Positions 14,488 to 44,156 of a DNA stretch of 64,000 nt are shown piece after piece. The translations under genes were made by a program, and so were the position numbers. The notes under the pieces are model-generated. The model saw only the letters and a program-made list of their open reading frames with translations, did not search any database and was not told where the DNA came from. The stretch covers positions 176,576,001-176,640,000 of the forward strand of contig OZ024743.1 of the NCBI GenBank assembly GCA_964016885.1. The letters run 5' to 3'. Positions within the stretch are counted from its first letter, which is position 1, and each line of letters begins with the position of its first letter. The stretch comes from Eledone cirrhosa. Taxonomy: Eukaryota.

Positions 14488-14687
14488 AACGAAGGAAATG
14501 TGGTAAGGAACCAGGTGGACCATAACGCACCAAAGTACTCAATACTTAGGGTAGTAGAGTGGGTAATAGGAACAAGTAAGACCCCGACGGCTGAGCTCAA
14601 GCCGTTTCGACGGCTAATTCTGTACTCAGTACAGAATTAGCCGTCGAAACGGCTTGAACTCAGCCGTCGGGATCTTACTTGTTCCTA
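14488..14687. mobile_element. Fold-back family B copy 1: 60-bp-arm palindrome plus 79-bp one-sided tail, in (TA)n
   Basis: 14567-14626 is the reverse complement of 14628-14687 (2 mismatches, 1-nt loop); homologous to 26394, 32479, 34914 and 44074. Confidence 0.85.
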
Positions 14688-14756
14688 TATATATATATAT
14701 ATATATATATATATATAAGTATGTATGTAGATTTATATATATATAAATCTACATAC

Positions 14757-15312
14757 ATGGTGGCTGCCAACTCGTTTTCGAGTACGGCCACTACTTTATA
14801 TCCATGTAGGAGAACCCCTACCGATACGCTGAACGAGTATGACATTTTAGTCCAGCCAGCGACTTGAAAACTCTGGTACAAACACTACACTTGTGACAAT
14901 TATTGACGCATAGTGCTGGGCCCATGGTACCATGTGTCGACAAGTGCAGAGAGATCTCTAGATATAAAGCAATGCCTGTGCCGTGAAGCTTTTATAGTGA
15001 GCAAAGGCTCTGCACAAAGCCAGTCCCACTCTCTTAACCAAGATGATATTTACCAAAAAGAAGAACAAGTCAACATCATTGGATACCATCAGGGTTGCAG
15101 GTGTTATATCAGAGTTTTCCTTCTCCTAGAATTCTGCCTTGACAAAGGCTAAGGGGTCATCTCTCCTGGTGATATTGGATGGCCATTGACTCTTAAGAGC
15201 TCCTTTGCCCTTTGACAGGTTTTGTTTTTAGACCTGCAGGATGTCCAAAGTCACCCTCCTCACCAAGAAACCTTGGTGGGGTTGCCAGTTTAGTCGCCAA
15301 CGACCCGACCAT
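14757..15312 (-). mobile_element. Internally deleted (bipartite) RTE-derived non-autonomous element
   Basis: Minus strand starts ggtcgggtcgttggcgactaaactggcaacccc (RTE-like 5' end, from recall) and ends with HKCSVCTRVFKSLAGLKCH plus a tail similar to the other RTE 3' ends. Confidence 0.55.
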
Positions 15313-16689
15313 GAGATACATACATATATATATACATATATATATACCCGACCATGAGATACATACATACATACATATATACATACATACATTTACGTAT
15401 GTATATAGCCATGCATTTATACATTTGTATATAGACATGCATTTATATATAAGTGTGGAAGGATGTTGACATGATTTATGTTGTTTTTTGGGGGGTAAGG
15501 AGATCACTTTTGTTTCCAGATTTTATTACCTAGGGAGATTAAATACCTCAGCTCTGGCTGAAAGCTGACCAAGTTCTCAACCTCATCAAACACTAACGCC
15601 GGTTTCTGCGTGTATATATGTGTATGTATGTATGTATGTATGTATGTATGTATGTACGTATGCATGTGGGTGTATGTTCGTATGTATATATATGTATACA
15701 CCCACACCTTTCACCAGCAATGCTTCTTTTTGTTGTCATTTTTGTTGAAGTTGTTCTTGTAACTGTTGTAAAAGTTGAAGTTGCTCTTATTTTATTTTAT
15801 TTGATTTCTTTTGTTTTCTTTTATCTCCCTAGGGAATTCATTGACAAGCTTCTTTTATTTATTTTCTTCTTTTTCTTCATTCAAATGCATTCACATTGGC
15901 TGTCTAAGGGACGTACAAATATGACTTAAAAACTTACTAAACTAAAGGGGTTTCCAGCACCCCCAAATCTTCAAACGTCGCCTTGCTCCAAAACGCCCCC
16001 AACCTCTACCCTACCCCCTGGAGCTCCGTTGAGAATCTTTAGACTAGAGCAAAGTGAAATAAAGTGCCTTGCTCAAGAGTATAACGCTCCACTAGGAATC
16101 GAACTTACAAGCTGACGAGCTTACGATCGTGAGACAAATAACCTTGCAAATAATCAATACACATATACAGACAAAGACCTATACACACAGATGCGCGCAC
16201 ACAGATACACACACACACACACACATAAACACAGAGACACAAATATGCACATACACATACACACACATATACGCGCACACAGATACACACACACATGAGC
16301 ACACATTCACACATGAAAAGTCGTTGCTTAGTTGTTATATACATACACATTTGGGACTGAAACACACATGTATAACTTATGTAGAATAAAGAATTCATCT
16401 ATAAATTCCAGTAAATACTACGTTGTGTTGGTTCATCATTCTATGGCAGCATTCCTTGTTTTTATACATAAATACATACTAACACTTATACATACATATA
16501 CATACACAGATATATATAAATATATATATATATATATATATATATATATATATATATATATATATATATATATATATATATATATATATATATATATATA
16601 TATATGCGTATATATATATATATATATATATATATATGCGTATATATATATATATGCATAATATATATATGTGCATATATATATATATA

Positions 16690-18380
16690 ATTAACAACAA
16701 AGAACGCTTAGAGCATAGGTATATCTTTACTTGCTGACAGTGTTTCGTCCACACTATAAGTGGGACTCATCAGAGCATAAAGAGTGATTACATATTACAC
16801 AAGCAATAACAAATCCAAGACATTGAAGAAATAAAAAATAAACATTGAAAAATAAGCATTGAAAAATAAGAAGTGCTAACAGTCACAGTTGGGCAGGGTG
16901 CTGTTAACATACAGTTACATACAAGCATACGCATAAGCATGAGCACCCGCATGCAACCACACAACAGGCAGCCATATGCAACACATATAGTATAGACTAA
17001 TACAAATAACCAATACAATAACATATCATGGACGAGTATGCAAAACCTAAGAGATGAATGGTGGATATACAATGGGTAAAAATACAATGGGTAAAAGTAA
17101 GATAAACAAAGGATAGAAATAGATTAACCATAGATAAAAAATAGATTAACCATGGATAAGAGAAAGAGAATAGATAAGGAATAGACAAGAATAGATAAAA
17201 TAGATAGGAGTAGATAAAAATAGATAAAAAATAGATAAAAAATGGATAAAAAATAGACAAATAATATATATAAAAAATATAAAAAATATATATATAAAAA
17301 ATACAGATAGTAGAGATAAAGGGTAAAGAATAAAATAAAATAAAATTATATAAAATAAAATACAATGAAATAAAATAAAATAAAGTAAAGTGAGATAAGA
17401 TATATATTTTGAGAATATATTTCTTGAATATATCAGGGGCACACGAACGCCTTACGTGTTACAGTTAGCCATATCACAACAATCAAATGCACAAATGAGA
17501 TTTATAATCAACAGGTGCTATGTCCACACTCGATTGAGTTGACCATTGCAATGCAATGGAGACATCCCAGGTTAGGCAGTCGCAGAAGTTCACACTCTAA
17601 AGTCACGGGTGTGCATTCACACAGTTGAGCGGTGGGGCAATCACAAAAGGTTCACACTCAAGGCAGGAATCCATTGGTCAACAGAGGCATATCCACATCA
17701 CTAGCGAGGACATATGCAAGGAAGGTAGGTAAATTCACGGGCAGATAACTGAGTGTCACAACATCACAAGGCAGCAAGCAAAATCGTTTACATCAACATG
17801 AACATCAAGAGGCAGATAAGCGGACCGAAAACAAGCAAGTGCAGGTGGGCTAGCCGAAAGCAAGCAAATACAGTTGGGTTAGGCGGGTTAATATGCATAC
17901 TCAACAGCGCATATAAAAAATATAAAAAATAGCTTCAAATGCCAATATCCATGAGATCACAACATTGATGCATCCCAAGATTATACAACAATATGGTTAG
18001 TACGTATATGCATATACACACACCACATGCATATGCAGAGACGGTATACATATATATATATATTTATATATAGACATATACAACCACCTACACCCATACA
18101 CATATAGATGTATATACAGACACACACGCACACACACACAGCGTAGGACACCCGGGTCAAAGCGGATATAATACACAGAAATATCACATTAGGCCAACAA
18201 AGGTAGAACAGTCGCTCACACTGGTCACAGATAATACATTCAAGATAAATTCTTACGAGGAGATGCAGCAAAATTGATCAAAGTAAATTCCTACGAAGAT
18301 ATGCATGTCCACACGTGTAGTCCGATTCGAGTGTAAACAGACCGTTAATAACTACGGAGGGCTATCGGGGCCAAAACGTT
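16690..18380 (-). mobile_element. Putative non-coding PLE-related insertion with a terminal HHR and A-rich internal low-complexity tract
   Basis: Bounded by (TA)n arrays; canonical HHR ~35 nt from the left end; no recognisable ORF; right boundary uncertain. Confidence 0.4.
16724..16783 (-). ncRNA. Type I hammerhead ribozyme with canonical core
   Basis: Minus strand tcttta TGCT CTGATGA GTCC cacttatagtgt GGAC GAAAC act GTC AGCA ag taaaga: GUC triplet, bulged extended stem I. Confidence 0.9.
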
Positions 18381-18616
18381 ACATATATATGCATATAATT
18401 TTATATATATATGCATATAATTTTCCGTTACATATATATATATATATATATATATATATATATGCGTATATATATATATATATATATATATATATATATA
18501 TTAATAAGAGGAATTCCTACTTTGTCTGATTTACTCGTTTTATTTACAATCCTTTAAAATATATAATGGTATTATAATGAAATAGTATGATACAATATTA
18601 AATTCTAAGTGTTGAT

Positions 18617-18655
18617 TGAACAAGTACTTTCATGCTTTCGCAATCTTCAGGTTCA
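18617..18655 (-). ncRNA. Minimal type I hammerhead ribozyme
   Basis: Minus strand TGAAC CTGAAGA t TGC gaaa GCA t GAAAG ta CTT GTTCA; palindromic stem III AAGTACTT. Confidence 0.75.
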
Positions 18656-42700: not shown

Positions 42701-43021
42701 GAGATTCGATTGCTATTTCTCTCAAGGTAATGCATCCACATTAAAGACTGTTTCATTTGTATATGTTGGTAGTGAAGTAGAATGGGAACTAATAACAATT
42801 CATAAGTGAGAAAAGAATCGATAAAATAACCACGTCTTGTTTCCTTGAACATACCACCTTCATGCATGAATGGTTAAAGAATTCGCCTTGTAATCGTGTG
42901 GTTATGGGTTCAGTCCAAATGCACGGCACTATAGCCTCGTGGTGATCAATGCCTATTAAATGTAGTTGATGAATGTAAGCCCTCCGTTATATATATATAT
43001 ATATATATATATATATATATA

Positions 43022-43121
43022 TAGGGTGTTCCAAAGAATATATTGACACTTCAACAGCATTCTAATAAGTATTGCCTATACATGTAATCAAAGTGTATAA
43101 ATTTTGGGGGGACATCCTATA
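43022..43121. mobile_element. Tc1-like mini-MITE
   Basis: tagggtgttccaaa...acactt / aagtgtataaattttgggggacatccta, TA-flanked. Confidence 0.6.
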
Positions 43122-43741
43122 TATACATGTGTGTGTGTGTGTGTGTGTGTGTCTGCGTGTGTGTGTGTGTGTGTGTGTGTGTGTGTGTGTGTGTGTGTGT
43201 GTGTGTGTGTGTGTGTGTGTGTGTGTGTGTGTGTGTGTGTGTGTGTGTGTGTGTGTGTGTGTGTGTGTGCGTGCGTGTGTGTGTGTGTGTGTATCGGTGT
43301 CTCTATCGTTGAATGTGTTTGCATTTATGTCTATGTTTCTGTTTATATCTGGTTTCTTCTCGCAGTTCGTCAATAAAAATATATATAAAATAACAAAAAT
43401 ATTCTGGAGCCGATCAAATCGAGTAAATCAATGCACCACCCAGCATGGCCGGGGTCTAATTACTGAGATCTAAAGCGAATAAGAAAATAAATGAATGCCT
43501 GATATTTCAGGATTTTAATTTAAGCTAAGAGAATATGATATTTTGATTGGTATAACATTTCTAAAATTGACGAAATTAGACAAAGAATGCCGAAAAGTAA
43601 CAGAAGCTAGCATTTTATATTACAGGCTGGCGAGTAAATATTTACACACACAAACACATACACACTCAAATTTATATATATATACATATATCTGTGGGTG
43701 TGTATGTATGTACGTATATATATGTATATGTGTGTGTGTGG

Positions 43742-44020
43742 AGACACGTGGCCTAGTGGTAAAGGTGCTGGACTTACAATCATATAACGCGTGGGTTCGA
43801 TTCCTGGGTTGTGTGTTGTGTTTTTGAGCAAGACACTTCATTTCATGTTGCTCCAGTATACTCAGCTGAAAATGAGTACCAGCAATAGCTGTGGGTTTAA
43901 CCCTGCGATGGACTGGCATCCTGTCCAGGAGGAGACTTGTACTCTCAGTCGCTTAACGCCATGAAACCGGGATAAGCACCGGCCAAATGAGCCTTCTGGC
44001 TTAAGACACGATTTAGACAG
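43742..44020 (+). mobile_element. Third tRNA-derived SINE family (CORE/V-domain-like)
   Basis: Box A gtggcctagtggt, box B ggttcgattcc, ttgagcaagacactt, ccctgcgatggactggcatcctgtccagg. Confidence 0.75.
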
Positions 44021-44073
44021 ACTTTAAACTTTAGACTTATATAAATATATATATATATATATATATTCATACT

Positions 44074-44156
44074 TAGCTGTCGAAAAGGCCAGAGCTCAGC
44101 CGTCGGGATCCTGACTCTTTTCCTATTACCCACTCTACTACCCAGTATCGAGTACT
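44074..44156 (+). mobile_element. Family B fragment (single arm)
   Basis: gtcgaaaaggccagagctcagccgtcgggatcc...cctattacccactctactac, in (TA)n. Confidence 0.75.

What the first reader, a model, noticed from the sequence alone, without database searches (positions are those of the whole stretch)
14488..44156. Family B: asymmetric fold-back element with fixed ends and a variable turn-around point
Seen: five copies in (TA)n. In four, the long arm ends at ...TTCGTT|(AT)n and the short inverted arm ends ~80 nt earlier at ...TTCCT(A). The inversion point varies, from a 1-nt loop (14627) to a 580-bp spacer. In the long copy the short-arm end coincides with the base of the extended HHR stem I (GGAAC/GTTCC). 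Inference: this is not a DNA-transposon MITE. It fits a retroelement whose two target strands prime at two defined RNA positions, as in PLE inverted pLTR plus tail, and is probably mis-annotated as a MITE.
Basis: partly seen in the sequence, partly recalled or inferred. Interest (0 to 1): 0.75.

Follow-up and report, generated by a model that had tools for sequence, protein, structure and literature searches.

The report
Penelope twin-primed stubs mark RNA start
These lopsided hairpin-shaped inserts are real and are short stubs of a very abundant Penelope-type jumping gene, not DNA-transposon MITEs; their outer ends are fixed at two points and most turn round at a third, which likely means that both cut DNA strands start copying one RNA at two set sites and run off its start.

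Summary
The five copies are real. They are ends of a Hydra-clade Penelope-like retroelement; its RT + GIY-YIG parent lies elsewhere in the genome (L039), with at least 24,037 long ends genome-wide. Numbering from the long end (0), 97 of 100 arms end at 0 or -78, and 67 of 68 scored fold-backs carry one of each. The turn-around is mostly not free: 56 of 62 long arms and 53 of 54 short arms that reach -131 stop by -143, at an initiator-like site inside the hammerhead's loop II. Junctions are nearly all different, so this is no MITE. Both arms share subfamily (31 of 34) and pass that wall together (68 of 100), which points to one RNA template. Each start site has a UAU matching the (TA)n target and a bulged hairpin 6-8 nt downstream. 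The layout is published; the twin-priming and run-off reading is inferred, with no RNA data. This scan noted the same pattern before on other DNA, including this genome.

The parts
14488..14626 (-). Copy 1, long arm (0 to -138): 3' half of the hammerhead, hairpin 1 and the tail; abuts (AT)n
   Evidence: 95.7% identical to the parent L039 pLTR
14627..14688 (+). Copy 1, short inverted arm (-139 to -78); ends GTTCC|TAT into (TA)n
14537..14560 (-). Hairpin 1 (ACUC-UACU / 6-nt loop / AGUA-UU-GAGU), -72 to -49, just 3' of the short-end start site
   Evidence: minimum-energy fold, (weak alone, z -0.37); same architecture as hairpin 2 and as published Hydra-clade tails
26393..26449 (-). Copy 2, short arm (-141 to -78), diverged
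   Evidence: 79.7%
26451..26590 (+). Copy 2, long arm (-139 to 0)
   Evidence: 90%
32479..33338 (-). Copy 3, long arm (0 to -851): whole pLTR plus about 600 nt of the parent's 3' UTR
   Evidence: 94.8% to L039
32572..32667 (-). Complete type I hammerhead-like motif (stem I ACCCC/GGGGU, core CUGAGAAG with a C3.A8 mismatch, long loop II, 7-bp stem III); predicted cut at -98|-97 (this arm carries GUU at the triplet)
   Evidence: read from the sequence; no Rfam hit at gathering score; the unconstrained fold did not adopt it
33337..33580 (+). Copy 3, short arm (about -320 to -78)
33470..33565 (+). Second complete hammerhead-like motif, in the short arm of copy 3
34926..34974 (-). Copy 4, short arm (-138 to -90; end diverged)
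34975..35075 (+). Copy 4, long arm starting at -98, the predicted hammerhead cut
44073..44156 (+). Copy 5, single arm (-129 to -46), both ends in (TA)n; lacks both standard ends

Best explanation
Each fold-back is a separate insertion of a Hydra-clade Penelope-like retroelement, likely made when both cut strands of a (TA)n target prime reverse transcription on one RNA at two fixed sites, and both copies mostly run off what is likely that RNA's 5' end. Steps: (1) the GIY-YIG domain cuts (TA)n on both strands (inferred; both-strand cutting and extension is shown in vitro for another PLE, PMC11167929). (2) Each 3' end pairs with a UAU at -80 or at 0 (the 3-nt match is shown; pairing is inferred). 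(3) The site is chosen by a bulged hairpin 6-8 nt downstream, one per site (hairpins predicted; role inferred). (4) About 94% of arms stop at -131 to -143 (shown), likely the start of the pLTR-driven mRNA (Inr-like TT/TCAGTC at -138 and TCATTT at -142; inferred); a few stop at the hammerhead cut (-97). (5) The two cDNA 3' ends are joined head to head by end joining with 0-4 nt microhomology or filler (junctions shown). (6) Long copies come from RNAs in which the two sites have upstream sequence (tandem read-through or circular), and RT sometimes jumps from the RNA 5' end to an internal site (jumps shown in 6 loci). Stubs lack hairpin 2 and would be dead ends.
For: Parent: L039 = pLTR + ORF (RT YRDD, C-terminal GIY-YIG-type AYIG) + 3' UTR + pLTR + (TA)n. 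Ends: 97 of 100 arms at 0 or -78 from an end-blind anchor; TAT at -56 and -36 is not used. Asymmetry: of 98 scored long ends, 67 have a short-end partner and 1 a long-end partner (binomial p 5e-19); 29 of 33 short ends have a long-end partner, 1 has none. Wall: stop rate 0.12-0.15 per nt at -131 to -143 against 0.003-0.005 before it; 2,282 vs 37,994 hits genome-wide. RNA start: read-through copies L182, L183, L187, L189 and L190 begin at -122 to -142 and continue into the 5' UTR or ORF; L182, L183, L186, L187 and L190 jump from about -137 to +63...+820. One RNA: same subfamily in both arms in 31 of 34 (26% between copies); 68 of 100 wall-passing arms sit in 34 head-to-head pairs, against about 6% if arms were independent. 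Not a simple fold-back: in 14 of 67 the short-end arm reaches more than 15 nt further 5', and in 9 of 67 the arms share no sequence. De novo origin: 29 distinct junctions in 34; the three repeated junctions each span different subfamilies. Hammerhead cut: (TA)4 abutting -97 15 hits, -138 21 hits, controls -110 and -120 1 and 3 hits.
Against: No RNA data: the start site is inferred from DNA alone. I saw no clear extra G (cap signature) at the junctions (by eye). No DPE match at +28 by eye. The hairpins are weak alone: 1 of 8 folds had z below -2, and 1 of 8 took another fold. The wall could be an RT stop or a processing site. Subfamily sharing also fits two RNAs from one source locus. About 17 of 30 read-through loci extend beyond -143, so a second template class is needed. 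In vitro, PAc showed no strand difference in start site and no homology to the target (PMC11167929), unlike the UAU match here. Samples are the first hits on contig C1 and exact patterns favour young copies; 2 of 100 long ends were dropped (no arm called). Pfam found no RT or GIY-YIG family in the parent ORF.
Confidence: 0.7

Rival explanations
1. Two RNA molecules: a protein dimer holds two copies of the RNA from the same source element, and each subunit primes at its own site; the two cDNAs are then joined.
For: PAc is predicted to be a dimer (PMC11167929). The arms overlap (-138 to -78 is copied twice in most copies), which on one RNA needs strand displacement. Subfamily sharing is expected from co-assembly.
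Against: It does not explain why one subunit always uses 0 and the other -78 (67 of 68), nor why both arms pass the wall together (68 of 100), unless the RNAs always come from the same transcript class.
Confidence: 0.15
2. The wall at -131 to -143 is not a transcription start but a structural RT stop or a nuclease site in loop II of the hammerhead.
For: No RNA data place the start. The wall is 13 nt wide. ATTC/GAAT microhomology near it makes some junctions ambiguous.
Against: Arms that pass the wall run on at the low background rate and come in pairs, so it is a property of the template, not a stochastic pause. Jumps to other RNA positions start exactly there. The site is Inr-like, and Penelope has an internal Inr promoter in its pLTR (PMC2377424, passages).
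Confidence: 0.2
3. Self-priming fold-back synthesis (proposed on an antisense template in PMC3846280): one cDNA hairpins at its end and copies itself.
For: Many junctions are near-perfect palindromes and the arms share subfamily variants.
Against: 9 of 67 pairs share no sequence, and in 14 of 67 the tail-less arm reaches further 5' than the tailed arm; a copy of a copy cannot do this. Filler bases occur in 10 of 34 junctions.
Confidence: 0.05
4. A MITE: the 200-bp palindrome moves as a unit by a DNA transposase.
For: Short, high-copy, inverted arms, TA flanks.
Against: Arms are unequal; junctions differ (29 of 34) and do not follow subfamily; 25 of 98 copies have no detected second arm; long copies run into an RT/GIY-YIG ORF.
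Confidence: 0.02

Closest known systems
Complex insertions of endonuclease-positive PLEs: pLTR, adjacent inverted 5'-truncated copy, one-sided 30-40-bp tail (PMC8557442 Fig. 2 legend; Pen2a_Av in PMC3846280)
   Same: Head-to-head inverted copy, tail on one arm only, partial tandems, microsatellite target.
   Different: The tail is 78-80 nt. Most insertions are about 200-bp stubs with no ORF. One-of-each asymmetry is nearly strict, and the inversion point piles up at one site.
Hydra clade of PLEs, including Hydra-1_Obim (PMC8557442, section 11 and supplement)
   Same: RWR (for RWK), DKT, CxCX5C linker, CxxC and CxH around E and N, C-terminal EN, (TA)n target, hammerhead in the pLTR, and the same bulged tail hairpin as read by eye in Hydra-2_Amil, Hydra-2_Ajap and (twice) Hydra-1_Ajap.
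   Different: A different family from Hydra-1_Obim (by eye; no alignment run). The unit is 3.53 kb with a 1.2-kb 3' UTR. The hammerhead core is U3-A8 or C3.A8, with a long loop II and a 7-bp stem III.
PAc (Poseidon of Anolis) internal RT initiation in vitro (PMC11167929)
   Same: Both target strands are cut and extended; two internal start sites bound the tail; AT-rich target; cleavage by the hammerhead is not needed.
   Different: There the sites lie 111-118 nt into the ORF, without target homology and without strand preference. Here both lie in the 5' UTR, match the target by 3 nt, and are used one each.
L1 twin priming and retroviral minus-strand strong-stop DNA (both recalled, from no call)
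   Same: A second target strand primes on the same RNA and gives an inversion; copying from a site near the RNA 5' end runs off the cap and can jump.
   Different: The second site is fixed, the arms usually overlap, there is no poly(A) or tRNA primer, and the run-off product is itself integrated.

Membership tests
EN+ Penelope-like element | [quoted passage not shown] | tested here: met
   L039:2733-4940, about 735 codons with one in-frame stop; YRDD and AYIG motifs; 186 homologues among 6,565 candidates, up to 56% identical. Pfam gave no RT or EN family.
EN+ Penelope-like element | pLTRs from tandem or partial-tandem arrangement | tested here: met
   L039 has two direct pLTRs; 376 read-through junctions (3 in the control) and arrays of about 3.54-kb period.
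EN+ Penelope-like element | Inverted 5'-truncated copy with a tail on one side | tested here: met
   67 of 98 long ends.
EN+ Penelope-like element | Tail length 30-40 bp | tested here: not met
   78-80 nt.
EN+ Penelope-like element | Target-site duplication | not testable with these tools
   Flanks are (TA)n; no empty site recovered.
Hydra clade | RWK and DKT motifs | tested here: met
   RLRWR and SDKTG in the L039 N-terminal frame; K is R here.
Hydra clade | CxCX5C linker; CxxC and CxH flanking the conserved E and N | tested here: met
   CNCPVGSIC in 3 of 4 loci scanned and CNLC..E...N...CKH in 4 of 4; the linker's last C is F in L039 and L041.
Hydra clade | CCHH motif absent from EN | tested here: inconclusive
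   None seen by eye; no reference alignment run.
Hydra clade | (TA)n insertion preference | tested here: met
   99 of 100 arms end in a TA run; the other reads through into the next unit.
Hydra clade | Canonical hammerhead in the pLTR | tested here: not met
   Core is UUGAGAA/UUGAUAA (U3-A8, a variant reported in PMC4209133) or CUGAGAA (C3.A8); Rfam gave 0 hits.
Hydra clade | Generally under 3 kb | tested here: not met
   Unit 3,534 bp; the excess is 3' UTR. The paper says 'generally'.
Hydra clade | Phylogenetic placement of RT | not tested
   No named reference PLE proteins were available as session sequences.
MITE (DNA transposon) | Symmetric fixed TIRs, copies moving as a unit | tested here: not met
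   Asymmetric ends; 29 distinct junctions in 34, not tracking subfamily.
MITE (DNA transposon) | Transposase-coding parent sharing the termini | tested here: not met
   Long copies continue into the RT/GIY-YIG ORF.
Non-LTR retrozyme | Tandem repeats each with a complete type I hammerhead (bioRxiv 10.64898/2026.07.22.740005, part 1) | tested here: not met
   Stubs are inverted pairs and hold only the 3' half of the ribozyme.

The most novel reading that the evidence does not exclude
Hydra-clade PLEs integrate by programmed twin priming: one RNA carries two conserved bulged hairpins that act like template-boundary elements and seat two RT active sites, one per target strand. The mRNA starts inside loop II of its own hammerhead, so the 5' ribozyme copy cannot cut and only the 3' copy can. 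Most events are therefore integrated strong-stop-like cDNAs, and jumps from the cap end build pLTRs and partial tandems. The tens of thousands of stubs are a fossil map of the RNA's start site, ribozyme cut and priming sites.
Probability: 0.4. Interest if true: 0.75.

Novelty: new member of a known kind. Interest (0 to 1): 0.5.

Why it matters
How PLEs form their inverted repeats and one-sided tails is called open in PMC8557442, and the one in vitro study (PMC11167929) does not explain the asymmetry. This family gives exact, testable coordinates: two start sites, two hairpins, a likely RNA start and a ribozyme cut, plus genomic evidence for one template and against self-priming. PLE RTs are the sister group of telomerase, so an RNA element that sets the start of copying would be of wider interest. 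In practice, tens of thousands of MITE-looking repeats in this genome are retroelement stubs.

Tried and rejected
Rfam on the window: 0 hits. Unconstrained folding did not give the hammerhead. Pfam: no RT or EN family for the parent. Sequencing runs: no RNA holder listed. Empty sites: contigs of runs X1-X3, all one sample, were laid on two loci; none bridged an empty site and the TA flanks were skipped; the sample may be the genome's own source, so I count nothing from it. Extended stem I as the cause of the short end: rejected because most templates seem to lack its 5' strand. TAT alone as the signal: rejected, TAT at -56 and -36 is unused. TTCGTTAT as a motif shared across Hydra elements: only 1 of 13 supplement hits lay at a Hydra 3' end. 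The hammerhead cut as the main 5' boundary: only a minor peak (5 of 98 at -96 to -100). Independent homologous jumps as the source of long arms: disfavoured, since arms pass the wall in pairs. The PLE at window 19282-22868 as the parent: no significant BLASTP match to the L039 protein. The alignment-score distance was faulty (all zero) and was replaced by subfamily typing. Paper searches: Penelope + strong-stop gave one paper with both words, on Copia elements; Penelope-like + twin priming + inverted + tail gave one review on human TEs (listing only); two searches gave only PMC8557442 and nothing. Subscription papers are not covered, so absence from print is not shown.
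Full report
Observation. A self-search of the window found five copies of the family and no more in bases 1-47,800; reading them and aligning them to the parent confirmed the layout. I number positions along the parent's sense strand, with 0 at the last T of TTCGTT. Copies 1 and 2 are long arm 0 to -138/-139 plus inverted short arm to -78. Copy 3 has a long arm to -851 and a short arm to about -320; its 'spacer' is about 535 bp of the long arm. Copy 4 has a long arm starting at -98. 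Copy 5 is a single arm with neither standard end.

Parent. A search of the own genome with the spacer returned 48 matches from 40 scored of 3,136 candidates. In 20 enlarged stretches the same RT and endonuclease frames appeared directly upstream of this pLTR in eight (L031, L032, L033, L037, L039, L041, L046, L048) and, in part, in L042. L039 is complete: pLTR (from -255), 92-nt 5' UTR, ORF of about 735 codons with one stop, 1.2-kb 3' UTR, pLTR, (TA)n. It carries RWR, DKT, CxCX5C (in sister copies) and CxxC/CxH, the marks of the Hydra clade in PMC8557442 (section 11 read). It is a different family from Hydra-1_Obim by eye. The protein has 186 homologues, one of them named, a hypothetical Argonauta protein; Pfam named nothing. 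No tree was built.

Abundance. Exact hits: 37,994 for a 19-mer at -131 to -113; 24,037 long ends; 10,439 short ends with a pattern limited to some subfamilies; 2,282 for a 19-mer at -177 to -159; 376 read-through junctions. Reversed controls gave 0, and 3 for the last. These are lower bounds and their ratios are rough.

Ends. From the first 100 listed hits of the end-blind anchor, 56 arms end at -78, 41 at 0, and 3 elsewhere: one at -13, one long end after an internal deletion, one read-through. In the tandem RNA both sites are followed by UAU (GUUCC-UAU, UUCG-UUAU), which matches the target; TAT at -56 and -36 is not used. From the first 100 long ends, 98 could be scored: 67 have an inverted partner ending at the short end, 1 at the long end, 3 have a partner whose end was not resolved, 25 have no partner detected, 1 is a direct jump and 1 ran off the fetched DNA. 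Of 33 short ends, 29 have a long-end partner, 3 a partner with an unresolved or deleted end, and 1 none. The short end is therefore almost never alone, while the long end often is; this suggests that 0 is primed first (inference).

Turn-around. Long arms stop at -20 to -78 in 16, at -79 to -130 in 20, at -131 to -143 in 56 and beyond in 6 of 98. Partner arms: 13, 53 and 1 of 67. The stop rate rises from 0.003-0.005 to 0.12-0.15 per nt in the wall. The wall lies in loop II of the hammerhead, over TCATT(T/C)AGTCC, which holds two matches to the arthropod-type initiator (consensus recalled). Penelope has an internal Inr/DPE promoter in its pLTR (PMC2377424, passages), and an Inr-like site is noted in Pen2a_Av (PMC3846280, parts 1-2 and passages). 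Among 30 read-through loci, several begin at the wall and run into the ORF, and six (L182, L183, L185, L186, L187, L190) show a jump from the wall to +63...+820; L183 repeats the unit -141 to +115 twice. About 17 of the 30 extend beyond -143, so a longer template class exists. A smaller peak sits at the predicted ribozyme cut: 15 hits for (TA)4 abutting -97 and 21 for -138, against 1 and 3 at two control positions.

One template, built anew each time. In 34 fold-backs with both arms past -127 there are 29 distinct junctions: 18 with 1-4 nt microhomology, 6 blunt, 10 with filler (one of these inflated by a point change). The three repeated junctions each occur in different subfamilies. Both arms show the same subfamily type in 31 of 34, against 26% between copies. 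Of the first 100 wall-passing arms, 68 lie in 34 head-to-head pairs within 5.5 kb; the opposite orientation occurs once, and independence predicts about 6%. In 14 of 67 pairs the tail-less arm reaches over 15 nt further 5', and 9 share no sequence. This contradicts the self-priming model of PMC3846280 and a MITE.

What marks the start sites. A fold of -135 to +112 gave the same bulged hairpin twice: 4-bp outer stem RCUC/GAGY, 2-nt 3' bulge, 4-bp inner stem, then AC. Hairpin 1 spans -72 to -49 and hairpin 2 +6 to +27, 8 and 6 nt after the first U of each UAU. The inner stems differ wholly (UACU/AGUA, CUAC/GUAG), and recurrent subfamily changes fall in the loops or give G-U pairs (by eye). The folds are weak alone. 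The same architecture with other inner stems is readable in Hydra-2_Amil, Hydra-2_Ajap and twice in Hydra-1_Ajap in the supplement of PMC8557442. Stubs end at 0 and lack hairpin 2.

Hammerhead. Stem I ACCCC/GGGGU, GAAA, a 7-bp stem III and GUC are conserved. The core is U3-A8 in about 41 arms and C3.A8 in about 50 (the latter inflated by my first query). U3-A8 is a reported PLE variant (PMC4209133, passages). Activity is untested.

Comparison and novelty. The inverted copy with a one-sided tail is published for PLEs, and two start sites bounding the tail are shown in vitro (PMC11167929, parts 1-2 of 4 read). I did not find the strict one-of-each rule, the run-off wall or the paired hairpins in the held library; older Arkhipova reviews were not seen and may bear on this. 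PMC13282606 (passages) lists PLE and MITE classes in an octopus but says nothing on this family. Earlier AI notes of this scan report the same readings on other DNA, in this genome and in others; they are not independent support. Verdict: a new member of a known kind, with a well-quantified and testable mechanism that remains inferred.

Noticed in passing
window 19282-22868: A second, unrelated Penelope-like insertion with 558-nt inverted arms at 99% identity, an RT frame on the minus strand (20100-21524, weak RVT_1 hit) and the endonuclease half on the plus strand; CTGAAGAG...GAAA core in its pLTR. A copy of the same family is nested between two family-B arms in L034/L035.
   Followed up: partly
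window 38316-39692 (+): 458-aa open frame that looks like a rhodopsin-class GPCR exon (DRY motif, NPFLY), judged by eye.
   Followed up: no
window 47854-64000: 26-bp satellite array of over 16 kb, with signs of higher-order periods.
   Followed up: no
window 2933-4230: 64-bp tandem repeat, about 20 copies at 96% match.
   Followed up: no
window 23514-23698, 24513-24698, 31356-31540, 45263-45448 and more: A 190-bp dispersed SINE-like family with more than ten copies in the window.
   Followed up: no
G000:C1:91476614-91487256 and C1:437200354-437210962: Head-to-tail arrays of at least four full parent units (periods about 3,542 and 3,531 bp); they fit rolling-circle copying or repeated jumps.
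   Followed up: partly
L185, L187 (+63); L190, L202 (+93); L183 (+115 twice): Template jumps land more than once on the same positions; +93 is the A of the start codon. L202 jumps from about -98, the predicted ribozyme cut. Unexplained.
   Followed up: no
L070, L113, L132, L175, L227 junctions: Runs of A or T up to about 20 nt at the wall junction, suggesting untemplated A addition to the run-off cDNA.
   Followed up: no
subfamily of L039 and window copy 3: This subfamily has a C3.A8 mismatch in the hammerhead core where others have U3-A8, yet it spread widely; cleavage may be dispensable.
   Followed up: partly
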